Shown one piece after another: positions 57,243-63,556 of a stretch of 64,000 nt of DNA. The notes below the pieces were generated by a model. The model made no database searches and was not told the DNA's origin. It saw nothing but the letters and a program-made list of their open reading frames with translations. Source of the DNA: Escherichia coli (GTDB lineage: Bacteria; Pseudomonadota; Gammaproteobacteria; Enterobacterales; Enterobacteriaceae); assembly GCF_011045215.1 (NCBI RefSeq), contig NZ_CP049201.1. One strand, written 5' to 3'. A program made the position numbers and the translations under genes. Position 1 is the first letter of the stretch. Each line of letters opens with the position of its first letter.

Positions 57243-58790
57243 CTAACATTTAGAATTGTTTAGCATTTCGTTTTTTACAGCAGTTTCAGCAAGCCAGACC
57301 ATAAAATCAATCGCACTCATCGGTTTTGCATAAAGATACCCCTGAATAAATCCAACATCCTTACCAAGAATATATCGAAGCTGCTGTTGGGTACTGACAC
57401 CTTCGGCGATAACATCCAAACCAAGTTTCTGGCATAGTGAGATAATCGTATCCAGAATAGGTACATTGATACCGCTGGTGTCAATCGTATCAACAAAGGT
57501 ACGGTCAATCTTTAAATAATTAGCTGGCAACTGTTGTAGATAAGCAAGTGAACAATAACCAGTACCGAAATCGTCTATTGCTATTAATACACCTTTTTCG
57601 CGCAAAATGGTGAGTTTCTCAGCCACTAGCTCTGGCTGGGTAATCAAGATGCGTTCCGTAACTTCCAACATAAGCTGAATAGTACCGATAGCTGCCATCA
57701 GTGCTTCTACATCCGAAATAAAGTCGTCATGAATCAAATGCTGAGGTGAAATATTAACGCTGATGTAAAAACTTTTGGGCAGTTGCCACTGCTTTACATC
57801 TTGGGCAATAAGTTGAAACAGATGACGTGAGAGCGGAACGATCATACCCTCACTTTCTGCCGCAGTGATGAAAATATCAGGTGTAATAAAGTTTCCTTCA
57901 GGTTGAGGCCAGCGCATTAAAGCCTCAACGCCACCACAACATTTGTGATTGACATTCAATACTGGTTGGTAATGAACAATAAATTGATCGTTTTTCATTC
58001 CTTTTGTTATTTCTCGCGCTAAAGAAAATCTTATCCGGTACCATCGCCGATAAAGCATGATTGTCAGAAAAGATAAACAGATGGATAACGGGATAAAAAA
58101 AAGTAAATTCTGCATCCATCGTGATGTTAACGTTGTGATCGGCGTTGCAACGGCTAGAGAGATTTGCTGATTCGGCAAAGAGTAGTGCTGAGTCATAAAT
58201 ATTCTGGCACCTTCTTTAGGTTGGCTTACAAGTAAATCACCAGTACCAAATCGCAGAGTGAATTTTGCTGATCTTTCTGTAGCCAAGACGTCCATCAGTT
58301 CTTGGATGTACCTTGAGTCAACAATGACAAATGCAGTTTTATTGCCTGTTATCTTTTCTGCGTAGATCACGACTGGTCTTTCGGGACCGCCTGACATACG
58401 AATAAAAGAAGAGACCCATTTCTCAGATAATGGTGTGGGGATTGTTTTGCCTTCAGGCAAAGGAAAAAGCAGTTTCTTCGCACCCGTGACAAAAGAGCAA
58501 GTAATATAACCATTTTCCAACAGTCCAATATCACGAATATAGGGAGTGAAGGCTCGAGTGTGGTTGAGTTCCGCCAGCATACTAGGGCAAGTGACACTGT
58601 CAAGTTGCTTTGCTTTTGAAGTTACGCGCCATGAAGCAACAGACAAATCTTCGCCATAACGAAGCAGGGTATTGGCACTAAAATTAATATCCTGTTTTAG
58701 TTGCATAACACTGGCAAGCAGCGCCAAGAGAGTCATAGCAACCAACGGAATGAATATGGAACCAAGTACAAAAGACCGCTTTACTTTCAT
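57243..58790 (-). CDS. CSS-motif-domain EAL c-di-GMP phosphodiesterase (PdeB/PdeC/PdeG-type architecture)
   Basis: 515-aa ORF: N-terminal TM, periplasmic domain with Cys pair, second TM, then EAL domain with YQP, EALMRW, DDFGTGY and EGVS motifs. Confidence 0.8.
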   Translation of the reverse strand: MKVKRSFVLGSIFIPLVAMTLLALLASVMQLKQDINFSANTLLRYGEDLSVASWRVTSKAKQLDSVTCPSMLAELNHTRAFTPYIRDIGLLENGYITCSFVTGAKKLLFPLPEGKTIPTPLSEKWVSSFIRMSGGPERPVVIYAEKITGNKTAFVIVDSRYIQELMDVLATERSAKFTLRFGTGDLLVSQPKEGARIFMTQHYSLPNQQISLAVATPITTLTSRWMQNLLFFIPLSICLSFLTIMLYRRWYRIRFSLAREITKGMKNDQFIVHYQPVLNVNHKCCGGVEALMRWPQPEGNFITPDIFITAAESEGMIVPLSRHLFQLIAQDVKQWQLPKSFYISVNISPQHLIHDDFISDVEALMAAIGTIQLMLEVTERILITQPELVAEKLTILREKGVLIAIDDFGTGYCSLAYLQQLPANYLKIDRTFVDTIDTSGINVPILDTIISLCQKLGLDVIAEGVSTQQQLRYILGKDVGFIQGYLYAKPMSAIDFMVWLAETAVKNEMLNNSKC

Positions 58791-59344
58791 TATATTAGGC
58801 TCATTATCAATGCAGCTAATCGCTTAATATATATTGGTATCATCATAACAACATTTTTCTTCCATCGGACAGGTAGAATTATATAACCGTCCCTTAAGAG
58901 AAAACAGGTTAGCATACAGCCTCCGGCTTCCCTACCTTAAAAGAGTTACAGTCGAAACTGAAATCTTCGGTTTTTCTTACATCCACAGAGAGGCGCATCA
59001 CCGTAAAAAGAACAATTATATAGAAGTACAGATCGCTATGCATGCAGACAAGCATCCCTGAGCTAATTATTACAGTCGGAAGAAGCATTATACCTGTCTG
59101 GGTATAACAGAATTGTGGGGTCAGCCCAACTATAGGGTAGGATCGTCTACCGTGGTGGGGTCAGTCTAATTGACGACTCGATGCAAGGCTCATTGAGTCG
59201 CATGAAAAACAAGGCGGGGCACAAAAAGTCGCATTTTTAAAGATAATAAAGGGAAATATGTATATTTATCAATGGATATATGGGTTTGTTTCTCCGCATT
59301 TAATACGCGGCGACGTCACTAATCAAACGCCCCTTGCATGACAG

Positions 59345-62300: not shown

Positions 62301-63556
62301 CGGAAGTTATCGGTCAAACGAGATGAGTCAAAAACAAAATCGTTGCCGTTTGTGTTAACGGAAAGCACGCCGTCTCCGGTTAATTTGTTCAGAAAACGCC
62401 AGCGCTGAGATGTCTCTATGGACAGCGTGCCGCCGTTAAGCAATACCGTGTTGGCGCCAATATTTTTTGGGTCCGTTATTAAGAGGCGGGCCGGAGAGTC
62501 GATAGAAAAATAGCCATGAAAATTCGAGTTATCACCGGCAAGCGCGGATAGGCCGTTCAACATATTGACGCGGCCCTTGCCACTCAAATTCGCCGACAGA
62601 GAAAATAAAGCGCTGGCATGATTAAATGTCAGAACGCCTTCCCTGAAGCCGAAAATAATCTCTTTGGTATTAATATTTCCGGCGGCGACAGCCTGCTCGC
62701 CGGCCCTTGCTCCAACGGCAAGCTCTCCTTTCCTGCCTCCTTTGGAAATGATAATTTCTCTGGCGCTTAGCAGGCCATTATCGGAGGCGATCGCTGTGGC
62801 TGTTCCATCCCAACCTACAATAAGCGTCGCGTCCGTCGAGATGACAGAGCCGGCCCCGGCTACCTGAAGCAGATTATCATAGCCGGCAGTTTCCAGCTGA
62901 TTCCCGACCTGAATATTCGCGTCAGCATGCGTCTTACCGCCATTAGTGGTTATCAGCGTGCCTGACCCATAGGTCCCGACTATAATTCTGCTTGCGGTTG
63001 CTAACTCACTTCCCGGACCATCAACATAGATACGTCCTGAGGTCGTAGATGACGGCGTTCTTCGGCTACCTATCCATATCCCGCTCCAGGTATTGTCCGA
63101 GCCGTGATGAAATAACTTTCCTCCCTGAGTAATATTTACCACGCCGCTTCCGTTTCCCATACCAACCTGTAAAGAACGATTTTTTTTGTCAATCGTAACT
63201 ATACTTCCTGGTCCGCTAATATTCAGTACCCCATAGCCATCAGGATTTTTTGAATCTGACTTACCGCCAACCAGTAAAGGATCGGTGTAAGTAGATTTGA
63301 TAATGTTCAGTCTGCCACCATCCGTTATATTGACGGTGCCTGTGGAGCCGTGTATCCCTATTTGAAAAAGCTCAGCTTGAACATAACCACCATTAGAAAT
63401 ATTAAGGGTGCCGTCAGTCTCATCACCAATAAAAATCCACGGTTCTTCCCATAATGAATCTATCTTTAACGCTTGGTTATCATTAATGGTTGCAGCTGGT
63501 GCACCGGTTGCACACATTGATGTGATAATAGCGATGAATAATTTACTTACTTTCAT
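59345..63556 (-). CDS. Type Va autotransporter adhesin (AIDA-I/pertactin-type), 1403 aa
   Basis: N-terminal signal peptide MKVSKLFIAIITSMCATGAPAA; long Gly/Thr/Asn-rich repetitive passenger; C-terminal beta-barrel translocator ending ...LGIRVTF. Confidence 0.85.
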   Translation of the reverse strand: MKVSKLFIAIITSMCATGAPAATINDNQALKIDSLWEEPWIFIGDETDGTLNISNGGYVQAELFQIGIHGSTGTVNITDGGRLNIIKSTYTDPLLVGGKSDSKNPDGYGVLNISGPGSIVTIDKKNRSLQVGMGNGSGVVNITQGGKLFHHGSDNTWSGIWIGSRRTPSSTTSGRIYVDGPGSELATASRIIVGTYGSGTLITTNGGKTHADANIQVGNQLETAGYDNLLQVAGAGSVISTDATLIVGWDGTATAIASDNGLLSAREIIISKGGRKGELAVGARAGEQAVAAGNINTKEIIFGFREGVLTFNHASALFSLSANLSGKGRVNMLNGLSALAGDNSNFHGYFSIDSPARLLITDPKNIGANTVLLNGGTLSIETSQRWRFLNKLTGDGVLSVNTNGNDFVFDSSRLTDNFRGTVALQDTAFSLAETNAAALKDLSMKMGSGSLVKVGEGRQTLGGLTFEGGTLLVGEVNPGQKTSPATVHTTGQLDISGQGTVQVTRGTTFSNDRPMPDTLIPLLEQDESNILVRLVSSDGGVIGHGGNLTLTDQNAHVISDTAEADITQHGAVVANATYDYRLTRGDRDDGLYVNYALTNVDLMDKEADALILNANGKGGNAADLSATLTGDGDLAIDSQKGQTVTLSNLNNDYRGVTNVRSGNLAMLNDNVLGNTRELKLAGDTGFDMRGHSQTIATLTAENGSLTHLNGGQLTLTNGGKASGVLAGNGQLNVAGGTLSISGNNPELQATTAIMQGAKVVLDHTLGAGTGNIVAAGTLSVRYAAGRLYNSLSDAGQVELIDSDVVLAGTNRAFSGQFTVNTGSQMTALTADSLGAAEVHNSGSLVLNGDNNWRLDNTVYGSGRVIKLGTGTIALGDNAAWTGQTDIKQGGLLLGNNASPATLASSQVDIAQPGMLAGIGGVAGNINNAGTLQVGAHHEENHRFTVGGDLINSGLLATGFKGHQAGNQLVINGNYTGRKGYLTINTALGDDHSVTDELVVKGDTHGETTVSVVNAGGTGAQTLNGIEVIHVDGHSDGEFIQAGRIVAGAYDYSLGRGQGENSGNWYLTSGKTNPDPAPTPDRHDDLRPEAGSYIANLAAANTLFVTRLRDRQGETHYIDTLTGKEAITSLWLRNAGGHTHQQDSSGLLGMQANRNVTQLGGDIFEWSSDSADRFRLGLMAGYANQKTRAENQLNGYRADSRISGYSIGLYGTWLQTPEGAYVDTWAQYNWFDNTVSGRGVGVEAYESKGFTASLESGYTWKLARTGERNALYIQPQAQITWMGVRADDHQEANGTRVKGQGDGNVQTRIGVRLFGKGHSQLDEGMARTFQPFIEANWLHNSKEFGVSMNGDNINLAGTRDVGELKAGVEGQLSKYVSLWGTIGQQVGDKGYSDTAAVLGIRVTF

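What the first reader, a model, noticed from the sequence alone, without database searches (positions are those of the whole stretch)
57243..63556. Large autotransporter adhesin co-located with a c-di-GMP phosphodiesterase
A 1403-aa AIDA-type autotransporter (59345-63556) lies directly upstream of, and co-oriented with, the CSS-EAL gene, separated by a 554-bp AT-rich spacer. Its passenger domain is highly repetitive (beta-helix-like Gly/Asn/Thr repeats) and the signal peptide is short, lacking the extended signal peptide seen in some autotransporters. c-di-GMP-controlled adhesin display is known in other systems (LapD/LapA logic), so the pairing may be a horizontally acquired adhesion module with its own regulator. 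I could not name the adhesin (EhaA/YfaL/YpjA-like are candidates).
Basis: inference. Interest (0 to 1): 0.55.

Follow-up and report, generated by a model that had tools for sequence, protein, structure and literature searches.

The report
Borrowed adhesin gene beside c-di-GMP phosphodiesterase
A baboon E. coli carries, on DNA acquired from a Citrobacter-like donor, an uncharacterised EhaA-like surface adhesin gene followed by a membrane enzyme that destroys the biofilm signal c-di-GMP; both parts are ordinary, but adhesins of this family turn out to sit next to such enzymes unusually often.

Summary
Both ORFs are real and intact at the stated coordinates. They are co-oriented and 554 bp apart. 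The window is E. coli PapRG-06-5, and only 1 of 5,426 complete E. coli genomes has this DNA. It lies in an aspV (tRNA-Asp) island, and the adhesin-plus-regulator block is 95% identical to Citrobacter sedlakii.

The adhesin is a classical type Va autotransporter with a short signal peptide, a predicted beta-helix passenger, an AC_1 autochaperone and a beta-barrel. Its closest named relative is EhaA (passenger 34%, C-terminal region 53% identity). It is not AIDA-I and has no sequence repeats.

The second gene is a catalytically intact CSS-EAL phosphodiesterase. Its 64-66% orthologues in Klebsiella and Citrobacter sit between two ToxR/VtrC-like "co-component" cassettes beside fimbrial operons. 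Those same cassettes lie divergently upstream of this autotransporter, so they are its more likely direct regulators.

The adjacency is partly conserved. An EAL gene follows the autotransporter in 7 of 14 informative loci, involving at least five non-orthologous EAL genes, including ehaA->pdeL in E. coli. It is missing in the 97%-identical C. sedlakii copy.

No LapD/LapG logic applies. The locus is a new member of known kinds, and functional coupling is plausible but unproven.

The parts
59345..63556 (-). Autotransporter gene, 1403 aa (RefSeq WP_163425213.1); EhaA-family classical type Va autotransporter
   Evidence: ORF; annotation; NCBIfam TIGR01414 and a below-cut-off ECSE_1600/MisL/AIDA-I match; BLASTP to EhaA 34% passenger and 53% C-terminal region
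63491..63556 (-). Short Sec signal peptide, residues 1 to about 22; no extended signal peptide region
   Evidence: Sequence inspection; no PF13018 on record for the identical protein P0121
60674..63490 (-). Passenger, residues about 23-961; predicted beta-helix with no sequence-level repeats
   Evidence: AlphaFold2 model, mean pLDDT 80.6, short-strand all-beta; Foldseek best hits Ag43, IcsA, TibA and Hbp passengers; no tandem or internal repeats
60398..60673 (-). AC_1 autochaperone, residues 962-1053
   Evidence: Pfam PF18883, E 1.3e-25 (coordinates shifted by +204)
59417..60172 (-). Autotransporter beta-barrel domain, residues 1129-1380
   Evidence: Pfam PF03797, E 7.4e-42 (shifted by +204); TIGR01414
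58791..59344 (-). 554-bp spacer between the autotransporter and EAL genes. It has no terminator-like fold and carries one sigma-70-like site at 59272-59243.
58895..59335 (-). About 440 bp of extra DNA, absent from the 115-bp spacer of the 90% orthologous locus L010. Its first ~60 bp are shared with C. sedlakii. A 122-bp piece (59169-59290) resembles DNA found next to cbtA at an end of a CP4-like gene block in 621 E. coli genomes.
57243..58790 (-). CSS-EAL c-di-GMP phosphodiesterase gene, 515 aa (WP_163425214.1)
   Evidence: ORF; Pfam; PDB match to the PA3825 EAL domain, E 7e-49
58107..58697 (-). Periplasmic CSS domain, residues 32-228, between TM1 (about 6-30) and TM2 (about 226-248); Cys68 and Cys98 (motif CSF)
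57321..58016 (-). EAL domain, residues 259-490, with EAL, N, ExxE, DDFGTG, K and EGVS motifs present
63557..63969 (.). 413-bp divergent control region, 37.8% GC, between the autotransporter and the first co-component cassette
63970..64000 (+). Start of the ToxR-like wHTH gene of co-component cassette 1. It runs off the window; the full cassettes are at L001 26971-28199 and 28398-29599.

Best explanation
What the region is. It holds two intact genes of a laterally acquired adhesin island.

Gene 1 is a classical type Va autotransporter of the EhaA lineage. It has a short Sec signal peptide, a beta-helical passenger of about 940 aa, an AC_1 autochaperone and a C-terminal beta-barrel. It is most likely a surface adhesin or aggregation factor.

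Gene 2 is an inner-membrane c-di-GMP phosphodiesterase of the CSS-EAL class: TM1, a periplasmic domain with two cysteines, TM2, and a cytoplasmic EAL domain with all catalytic motifs.

Both genes belong to a conserved regulatory chassis. It consists of two ToxR/VtrC-like co-component cassettes, an Ail/Lom outer-membrane protein, DUF4156 and an EcpR-like LuxR regulator. In Klebsiella and Citrobacter werkmanii this chassis flanks chaperone-usher fimbriae. Here and in C. sedlakii it flanks the autotransporter.

How it most likely works (inferred, not shown):
1. The divergent co-component cassettes sense a periplasmic or gut cue and switch on the autotransporter from the shared AT-rich control region, as MarT/FidL does for misL.
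2. The phosphodiesterase is expressed by read-through or from its own promoter.
3. Its activity is gated by the redox state of the periplasmic cysteine pair, as in PdeC.
4. It lowers c-di-GMP, so that curli/cellulose matrix goes down and motility goes up while the alternative adhesin is displayed.

The phosphodiesterase therefore coordinates lifestyle with adhesin expression. It does not control adhesin display post-translationally.
For: Shown:
- Gene integrity and domains.
- Predicted beta-helix passenger.
- Catalytic motifs aligned to the solved PA3825 EAL domain and conserved across the clade.
- Two transmembrane segments and Cys68/Cys98.
- Island at aspV, unique among E. coli and 95% identical to C. 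sedlakii.
- Synteny with the Klebsiella and C. werkmanii cluster: EAL 64-66%, cassette 1 about 52% to Klebsiella cassette A, cassette 2 about 53% to cassette B, Ail 62%, DUF4156 79%.
- The same triad of CSS-EAL, co-component cassette and fimbriae in an E. coli locus next to pgaABCD and a GGDEF gene.
- The autotransporter and EAL genes diverge in step in L010, at 90.4% and 92.7% DNA identity, with a 115-bp spacer.
- EAL genes recur downstream of family members.
- No terminator-like fold follows the autotransporter stop codon here or in L010.

From the literature:
- MarT/FidL activates misL, and STM0341/0342 and STM0344/0345 are neighbouring cassettes (PMC9214523).
- STM0343 is an EAL protein whose deletion raises c-di-GMP, biofilm and CsgB and lowers motility (PMC3229569, PMC11737180).
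- CSS-domain phosphodiesterases are controlled by DsbA-dependent disulfide formation and DegP/DegQ processing (PMC5897775).
Against: - No expression or activity data exist for this locus.
- The spacer here is 554 bp and contains about 440 bp of foreign DNA with a promoter-like site, so coupling may be broken in this strain.
- The 97% identical C. sedlakii copy ends at thrW/proA without the EAL gene, and the 88% copy is followed by yafT and a type VI secretion cluster.
- In O157:H7 a strong terminator-like hairpin separates ehaA from pdeL, so adjacency does not imply an operon.
- The second cysteine lies in CSF rather than CSS, and the last motif is EGVS rather than EGVE. Both are conserved across the clade, but the effect on activity is untested.
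- Equating the Salmonella relative P0006 (59%) with STM0343 rests on synteny and gene numbering only.
- A shallow profile comparison of the partner proteins with FidL/YqeJ was not significant.
Confidence: 0.55

Rival explanations
1. Mosaic accident. The two genes are neighbours only because island rearrangements and mobile DNA placed them together. The phosphodiesterase acts on the global c-di-GMP pool, or is silent, with no functional tie to the autotransporter.
For: - The closest named homologous locus, C. sedlakii (97% autotransporter identity), lacks the EAL gene. Homology breaks about 60 bp after the autotransporter stop codon.
- The 88% copy is followed by yafT.
- The spacer carries about 440 bp of island-type junk.
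- The EAL gene is bordered on its other side by transposase fragments and an IS110.
- EAL orthologues elsewhere lie between the two cassettes rather than after an autotransporter.
Against: - L010 has the same gene pair with a tight 115-bp spacer and matching divergence.
- At least five non-orthologous EAL genes follow autotransporters of this family in different genomic contexts.
- A different E. coli autotransporter family, ECSE_1600, shows no such neighbour.
Confidence: 0.3
2. Feedback loop. c-di-GMP controls transcription of the autotransporter or the cassettes through an unidentified c-di-GMP-responsive factor, and the co-expressed phosphodiesterase supplies negative feedback. This would resemble MrkJ/MrkH control of Klebsiella type 3 fimbriae, which I cite from memory.
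For: - Small LuxR/GerE, Hha or PdeL-type HTH regulators often lie between or fused to the autotransporter-EAL pair in relatives.
- An EcpR-like LuxR gene is part of the chassis.
Against: No PilZ, MshEN or other recognised c-di-GMP receptor is annotated in the island. Nothing was tested.
Confidence: 0.1
3. The phosphodiesterase controls display or retention of the adhesin on the surface in the manner of LapD/LapG/LapA.
For: Only the general precedent that c-di-GMP can control adhesin display, plus the adjacency itself.
Against: - The NCBIfam LapD model scores 50.1 bits against a cut-off of 1020, and the protein is CSS+EAL with intact catalytic motifs.
- No LapG-like protease or type I secretion genes are annotated nearby.
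- The adhesin is a type Va autotransporter.
Confidence: 0.03

Closest known systems
EhaA autotransporter with downstream pdeL (yahA) in E. coli O157:H7 and other strains
   Same: - It is the closest named E. coli paralogue: C-terminal region 53% and passenger 34% identical.
- It has the same layout, with the autotransporter directly upstream of and co-oriented with an EAL phosphodiesterase gene (141-bp spacer).
   Different: - PdeL is a cytoplasmic LuxR-HTH+EAL protein, not a CSS-EAL membrane protein.
- The locus is betT-pdeL, not aspV.
- A strong terminator-like hairpin follows ehaA.
- Passenger identity is too low for orthology.
The stretch STM0341-STM0345 of Salmonella Typhimurium (two co-component cassettes with the EAL gene STM0343 numbered between them) and the syntenic Klebsiella and Citrobacter werkmanii clusters
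   Same: - Orthologous CSS-EAL at 64-66% in Klebsiella and C. werkmanii; 59% to a widespread Salmonella protein.
- The same two ToxR/VtrC-like cassettes, Ail/Lom and DUF4156.
- STM0343 behaves as an active phosphodiesterase that lowers CsgB and biofilm and raises motility (PMC11737180).
   Different: - In Klebsiella and C. werkmanii the EAL gene lies between the two cassettes and the adjacent adhesin is a chaperone-usher fimbria.
- Here the cassettes are contiguous, the adhesin is an autotransporter, and the EAL gene lies after it on the opposite strand.
- Equating P0006 with STM0343 is inferred, not tested.
MarT/FidL-MisL of Salmonella pathogenicity island 3
   Same: - A ToxR-like membrane regulator plus a lipocalin-like partner lies next to an autotransporter adhesin that it activates (PMC9214523).
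- The beta-domain here matches the MisL model at E 5e-132, though below the cut-off.
- The partner protein here has a VtrC/ToxS fold.
   Different: - Sequence relation of the partner proteins to FidL/YqeJ was not significant in my shallow profile test.
- As far as I recall, no EAL gene forms part of the MarT/FidL-MisL unit.
PdeC and the other CSS-domain phosphodiesterases of E. coli (PdeB, PdeD, PdeG, PdeN, PdeT/VmpA)
   Same: - The same architecture and two periplasmic cysteines (PMC5897775).
- The E. coli CSS-EAL at 41% identity (P0013) sits beside a FidL/YqeJ-like co-component cassette and a fimbrial operon. I take this to be PdeT/VmpA from its neighbours, which is an inference.
   Different: - Only about 40% identical or less to any common E. 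coli CSS-EAL protein.
- Below the NCBIfam PRK10551 cut-off (291.8 vs 461).
- CSF rather than CSS, and EGVS rather than EGVE.

Membership tests
Classical (type Va) autotransporter | N-terminal Sec signal peptide | tested here: met
   By inspection only: MKVSK, a hydrophobic core, then APA|A, about 22 aa. No signal-peptide predictor was run.
Classical (type Va) autotransporter | C-terminal beta-barrel translocator domain | tested here: met
   TIGR01414 at 395.8 bits (cut-off 16); Pfam PF03797, E 7.4e-42
Classical (type Va) autotransporter | Beta-helical passenger with autochaperone | tested here: met
   AC_1, E 1.3e-25. AlphaFold2 model is all-beta at pLDDT 80.6, with residues 483-575 of the model at low confidence. 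Best fold hits are Ag43, IcsA, TibA and Hbp passengers, with low TM-scores.
AIDA-I / self-associating autotransporters in the strict sense | Reaches the curated AIDA-I model cut-off | tested here: not met
   NF033176 scores 358.6 bits against a cut-off of 1200 and aligns only residues 655-1403
AIDA-I / self-associating autotransporters in the strict sense | Imperfect ~19-aa sequence repeats in the passenger | tested here: not met
   No DNA tandem repeats; no off-diagonal self-BLASTP hits
AIDA-I / self-associating autotransporters in the strict sense | Adjacent heptosyltransferase gene (aah/tibC type) | tested here: not met
   The annotated neighbours are the EAL gene and a wHTH gene
EhaA | Orthologue-level identity and the betT-pdeL location | tested here: not met
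   34% passenger and 53% C-terminal-region identity. The locus is an aspV island, whereas ehaA lies between betT and pdeL.
CSS-domain EAL phosphodiesterase (PdeC type) | TM1, a periplasmic CSS domain of about 200 aa, TM2, then a cytoplasmic EAL domain | tested here: met
   Pfam PF12792 at 32-228 and PF00563 at 259-490; hydrophobic segments at 6-30 and 226-248
CSS-domain EAL phosphodiesterase (PdeC type) | Two conserved periplasmic cysteines | tested here: met
   Cys68 and Cys98 align with the conserved cysteines of relatives. The second lies in CSF, not CSS, throughout this clade.
CSS-domain EAL phosphodiesterase (PdeC type) | Catalytic EAL residues present | tested here: met
   EALMR, N346, E376/E379, DDFGTG, LKID, EGVS and Q483 align to the PA3825 EAL domain. 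The Glu-to-Ser change in EGVE is clade-wide.
CSS-domain EAL phosphodiesterase (PdeC type) | Phosphodiesterase activity inhibited by a DsbA-formed disulfide, with DegP/DegQ processing | not testable with these tools
   Shown for PdeC and PdeB only (PMC5897775)
LapD/LapG/LapA adhesin-retention system | LapD-type receptor (HAMP plus degenerate GGDEF-EAL that binds c-di-GMP) | tested here: not met
   The LapD model scores 50.1 bits against a cut-off of 1020. The domains are CSS+EAL with intact catalytic motifs.
LapD/LapG/LapA adhesin-retention system | LapG protease and a type I secreted giant adhesin in the locus | tested here: not met
   None is annotated within 20 kb either side. The adhesin is type Va.
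Co-component signal systems (ToxR/ToxS, VtrA/VtrC, MarT/FidL); applies to the genes just beyond the window end | ToxR-like wHTH, transmembrane segment and small periplasmic domain, with an overlapping downstream ORF encoding a lipocalin-like partner | tested here: met
   - The wHTH profile matches the ToxR DNA-binding domain at E 1.2e-6.
- The ORFs overlap (L001 27693-27720).
Co-component signal systems (ToxR/ToxS, VtrA/VtrC, MarT/FidL); applies to the genes just beyond the window end | Activates the neighbouring adhesin gene | not testable with these tools
   Known for MarT and misL (PMC9214523); inferred here from the divergent arrangement

The most novel reading that the evidence does not exclude
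EhaA-family autotransporter genes and EAL phosphodiesterase genes form a recurrent, selected two-gene association across Enterobacterales. The EAL partner has been recruited or replaced several times: PdeL-type LuxR-EAL, at least four mutually distant CSS-EAL types (one of them degenerate), and on one plasmid an HD-GYP-like gene directly upstream as well. This would mean that displaying this adhesin class is generally coupled to c-di-GMP degradation. I found no paper in the held library stating this rule.
Probability: 0.35. Interest if true: 0.55.

Novelty: new member of a known kind. Interest (0 to 1): 0.35.

Why it matters
- It documents inter-genus transfer, Citrobacter to E. coli, of a complete adhesin-plus-regulator island in a wild-primate commensal.
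- It identifies ToxR/VtrC-like co-component cassettes as the probable direct switch for an autotransporter. This extends the MarT/FidL-MisL precedent.
- It exposes a testable pattern, including the well-known ehaA-pdeL pair, in which adhesins of one autotransporter family sit next to c-di-GMP-degrading enzymes. If the pattern is functional, it would explain how cells avoid displaying an alternative adhesin together with the curli/cellulose matrix programme.
- The individual parts are ordinary, so the value is comparative rather than mechanistic.

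Tried and rejected
- Remnant of a LuxR or EAL gene in the 554-bp spacer: tblastn found none.
- RNA families in 56400-64000: no Rfam match at E <= 1.
- Intrinsic terminator between the two genes: none in the consensus scan, and folding is no better than shuffles.
- The extra spacer DNA as a defined transposable element: I saw no terminal inverted repeats when reading the ends. It only partly resembles DNA beside cbtA at the end of a CP4-like gene block, so it remains unexplained junk.
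- Partner proteins versus FidL/YqeJ by shallow profile-profile comparison: not significant, E 0.16. The fold comparison settled the question instead.
- NCBIfam and Pfam on the cassette proteins: nothing significant.
- Literature search for ehaA with pdeL or yahA: swamped by unrelated 'ehaa' DOI strings, with nothing relevant found.
- Assigning the Logan contig L026 to E. coli by megablast of its flank: no match. The organisms of L010, L011, L012, L026 and L027 remain unknown.
- Confirming that the Salmonella relative P0006 is STM0343: the cluster names are generic, so this stays an inference.

Full report
**1. Observation**

The mechanical ORF list gives 59345-63556 (-) at 1403 aa and 57243-58790 (-) at 515 aa. 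The two are co-oriented, with the larger gene upstream. They are separated by 554 bp at 40.8% GC. The autotransporter gene is 53.8% GC and the EAL gene 41.1%.

The region matches one record only, the chromosome of E. coli PapRG-06-5 from Guinea baboon stool in the Gambia, at 100% identity. No other of 5,426 complete E. coli genomes has it. RefSeq annotates both genes as intact.

**2. The autotransporter**

- NCBIfam finds the autotransporter barrel domain (TIGR01414, residues 963-1403). Matches to the ECSE_1600, MisL, AIDA-I, ShdA and YfaL models are strong but all below their cut-offs.
- Pfam finds AC_1 at residues 962-1053 and the beta-domain at 1129-1380. One search scanned residues 205-1403, so 204 has been added to its coordinates.
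- The N-terminus is a plain signal peptide of about 22 aa. The identical database protein has no ESPR domain on record, whereas some relatives do.
- An AlphaFold2 model of residues 23-1033, built on nine orthologues, has mean pLDDT 80.6. It consists of short beta-strands throughout.
- Its best Foldseek hits are the passengers of Ag43, IcsA, TibA and Hbp. TM-scores are low, as expected for long solenoids.
- There are no DNA tandem repeats and no internal repeats by self-BLASTP. 'Repetitive' is therefore true only of the fold.
- By DNA, the nearest E. coli gene is ehaA, followed by the ECSE_1600 family. By protein, EhaA is 53% identical over the C-terminal third and 34% over the passenger.

This is an uncharacterised EhaA-family autotransporter. 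It is neither AIDA-I nor EhaA itself.

**3. The phosphodiesterase**

- Pfam gives CSS-motif at 32-228 and EAL at 259-490.
- Hydrophobic segments lie at about 6-30 and 226-248. Cys68 and Cys98 fall in the periplasmic loop.
- The best solved relative is the EAL domain of PA3825 (E 7e-49). The alignment shows the EAL, N, ExxE, DDFGTG, K, E and Q positions conserved.
- Two departures, CSF for CSS and EGVS for EGVE, are shared by the whole clade and by more distant E. coli relatives.
- The protein falls below the cut-off of the nearest curated model (PRK10551, 291.8 vs 461). It is 41% identical to the closest widespread E. coli CSS-EAL in the search.
- CSS-domain phosphodiesterases are inhibited by a DsbA-made periplasmic disulfide. 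They become highly active and are processed by DegP/DegQ when reduced (PMC5897775).

**4. Origin**

- The pair lies in an island inserted at tRNA-Asp (aspV, window about 43969-44045). Upstream of it the window is E. coli core, from frr through bamA and an rRNA operon to dnaQ.
- The island begins with CP4-like genes such as cbtA/yeeU, then an IS110 and transposase fragments, then the EAL gene and the autotransporter.
- Beyond the window end come two wHTH+partner gene pairs, Ail/Lom, DUF4156 and an EcpR-like LuxR regulator. After an IS3 come a fimbrial operon, a third pair and a truncated second CSS-EAL.
- Citrobacter sedlakii NBRC 105722 has a 97% identical autotransporter. A 9.4-kb block running from 60 bp past the autotransporter stop codon through the LuxR gene is 95% identical in DNA.
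- In C. sedlakii the block abuts a sequence that reads as a tRNA-Thr gene (thrW) and then proA/proB, with no EAL gene. I identified that tRNA by eye from the alignment and did not run a tRNA finder on the locus.

**5. Who travels with whom**

*(a) Orthologues of the EAL gene.* Copies at 64-66% identity occur in K. pneumoniae, C. werkmanii and a Salmonella plasmid-like contig. None lies next to an autotransporter. In Klebsiella and C. werkmanii the gene sits between two wHTH+partner pairs, beside a chaperone-usher fimbrial operon and followed by Ail/Lom and DUF4156. On the Salmonella contig, DUF4156, one wHTH-like gene and a fimbrial operon lie nearby.

The E. coli pairs are the counterparts of the Klebsiella pairs:

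| Component | Identity to Klebsiella counterpart |
|---|---|
| wHTH and partner of pair 1 vs pair A | 52% and 50% |
| wHTH and partner of pair 2 vs pair B | 53% and 43% |
| Ail/Lom | 62% |
| DUF4156 | 79% |

The phosphodiesterase is therefore a conserved part of a regulatory chassis. The adhesin attached to that chassis varies.

*(b) Nature of the pairs.* They are co-component signal systems.
- The wHTH profile matches the ToxR DNA-binding domain at E 1.2e-6.
- The two ORFs of a pair overlap.
- Kinch et al. describe this class, including MarT/FidL, which activates the misL autotransporter. They also list the neighbouring STM0341/0342 and STM0344/0345 cassettes (PMC9214523).
- STM0343, whose number falls between those cassettes, is listed as an EAL protein (PMC3229569). 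Its deletion raises c-di-GMP by about 30%, raises biofilm and CsgB, and lowers motility (PMC11737180).
- A widespread Salmonella protein is 59% identical to the window EAL. That it is STM0343 is my inference.
- The nearest widespread E. coli relative, at 41%, lies next to pgaABCD, a GGDEF gene, a FidL/YqeJ-like cassette and fimbriae.

*(c) Orthologues and relatives of the autotransporter.*

| Locus | Identity to window autotransporter | What follows the autotransporter |
|---|---|---|
| L010 | 90% | 115 bp, then the same CSS-EAL (91% protein identity); both blocks diverge alike in DNA, 90.4% and 92.7% |
| L028 | near-identical island | same pair |
| L012 | 61% | LuxR/GerE gene, then a degenerate CSS-EAL |
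| L027 | 59% | hha, then an intact CSS-EAL |
| Kosakonia sacchari (L023) | 819-aa relative, 48% over the C-terminal region | convergent CSS-EAL 20 bp away |
| Enterobacter plasmid | 50% | preceded by an HD-GYP-like gene; followed by a regulator and, 3.5 kb on, a split CSS-EAL |
| E. coli ehaA | 34% passenger, 53% C-terminal region | 141 bp, then pdeL; seen in two unrelated strains |
| Citrobacter spp. | 51% | 99-aa fragment resembling the PdeL HTH, then phage genes |
| C. sedlakii | 97% | no EAL |
| L026 | 88% | no EAL (yafT, type VI secretion genes) |
| Salmonella (L016) | 58% | no EAL |
| C. farmeri plasmid | 49.5% | no EAL (IS66) |
| F plasmid | 43.5% | no EAL (another autotransporter) |
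| Providencia rettgeri (L024) | partial, 53% over the C-terminal region | no EAL |

- The four CSS-EAL types (window/L010 type, L012, L027 and L023) are only 23-39% identical to one another. The Enterobacter plasmid's split CSS-EAL was not compared.
- The ECSE_1600-family autotransporter of E. coli is followed by hipBA.
- The ehaA-linked pdeL allele is only 69-91% identical to K-12 pdeL over its first 300 nt, against 93-100% for the rest. This suggests that ehaA and the 5' part of pdeL move together.
- In total, 7 of 14 informative loci have an EAL gene just downstream, or 8 counting the fragment. At least five of these partners are non-orthologous.
- Only a small number of a genome's several thousand genes encode EAL domains. 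On that basis this is far above expectation. No phylogenetically controlled test was run.

**6. The spacer in this strain**

- Relative to L010, about 440 bp (window about 58895-59335) are extra. The ends are bounded by CAAGGG and TAAGGG.
- The first ~60 bp are shared with C. sedlakii, and with L011.
- A 122-bp piece resembles DNA found next to cbtA at an end of a CP4-like gene block in 621 E. coli genomes.
- The extra DNA carries a sigma-70-like site at 59272-59243.
- No terminator-like structure follows the autotransporter stop codon here or in L010. A strong one follows ehaA in O157.
- Co-transcription is therefore possible here but not shown, and it is not a general property of the association.

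**7. Interpretation**

Firm conclusions: the identities of the parts, the foreign origin, and the absence of anything LapD/LapG/LapA-like.

The most likely working model is this. The divergent co-component cassettes switch on the autotransporter. The redox-gated phosphodiesterase lowers c-di-GMP, so that matrix production falls and motility rises while this adhesin is in use. This model is inference from homologues.

The main rival is that the adjacency in this strain is a by-product of island mosaicism. The C. sedlakii and L026 loci and the junk-filled spacer keep that rival alive.

**8. Verdict**

This is a new member of known kinds. Interest is moderate to low. The most novel reading that survives is a general association between EhaA-family autotransporters and EAL phosphodiesterase genes.

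Noticed in passing
window 63970-64000 and beyond (L001 26971-29599): Two tandem ToxR-like wHTH + VtrC/ToxS-fold partner cassettes are transcribed divergently from the autotransporter. Only the first 31 nt lie inside the window. They are the counterparts of the two cassettes that flank the orthologous EAL gene in Klebsiella and Citrobacter.
   Followed up: yes
window 58895-59335: About 440 bp of extra DNA lie in the spacer between the autotransporter and EAL genes, relative to the 90% orthologous locus. The insert is bounded by CAAGGG and TAAGGG. It contains a 122-bp segment that recurs in 621 E. coli genomes next to cbtA at an end of a CP4-like gene block. Its origin and effect are unexplained.
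   Followed up: partly
L001 31800-44590 (beyond the window end): The same island carries a second adhesin set between IS3 copies: a chaperone-usher fimbrial operon, a third wHTH+partner pair of very low GC (28-33%), and a truncated second CSS-EAL. That copy (349 aa, P0012) lacks the DDFGTG motif and is closer to the Klebsiella/C. werkmanii type.
   Followed up: partly
window 43969-44045 and 44046-57242: The island is inserted at tRNA-Asp (aspV) just after dnaQ. Its proximal part consists of CP4-like genes (cbtA/yeeU, radC, antirestriction, DUF932), an IS110 (55207-56358) and transposase fragments (about 56597-56836) that abut the EAL gene.
   Followed up: partly
L018 12213-12519 (Citrobacter sedlakii): In C. 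sedlakii the homologous block ends about 110 bp from what reads as a tRNA-Thr gene (thrW, identified by eye) next to proA/proB. The same module therefore appears to occupy different tRNA-associated sites in the two genera.
   Followed up: partly
L029 10278-11366 vs L030 4372-5460: The pdeL allele linked to ehaA in O157:H7 is only 69-91% identical to K-12 pdeL over the first 300 nt (the HTH region), but 93-100% identical over the rest. The K-12 betT-pdeL intergenic DNA is unrelated to ehaA. This suggests that ehaA and the 5' end of pdeL are exchanged as a unit.
   Followed up: partly
L012 7060-8571: The CSS-EAL gene downstream of the 61% autotransporter orthologue has lost the DDFGTG, K and E catalytic positions while keeping the CSS motif. 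It may be a non-catalytic sensor.
   Followed up: no
L028 vs L001 13292-17048: A Logan assembly (SRR11014969) carries a 99.6-99.9% identical island that lacks a 3.7-kb segment present in PapRG-06-5. It is therefore either a different assembly of the same strain or a different close relative.
   Followed up: no
window 59345-63556 vs neighbours: The autotransporter gene is 53.8% GC, while the rest of the chassis (EAL gene, cassettes, LuxR, fimbrial genes) is 28-50%. This may reflect the Gly/Ala/Thr-rich passenger or a separate origin of the adhesin gene.
   Followed up: no
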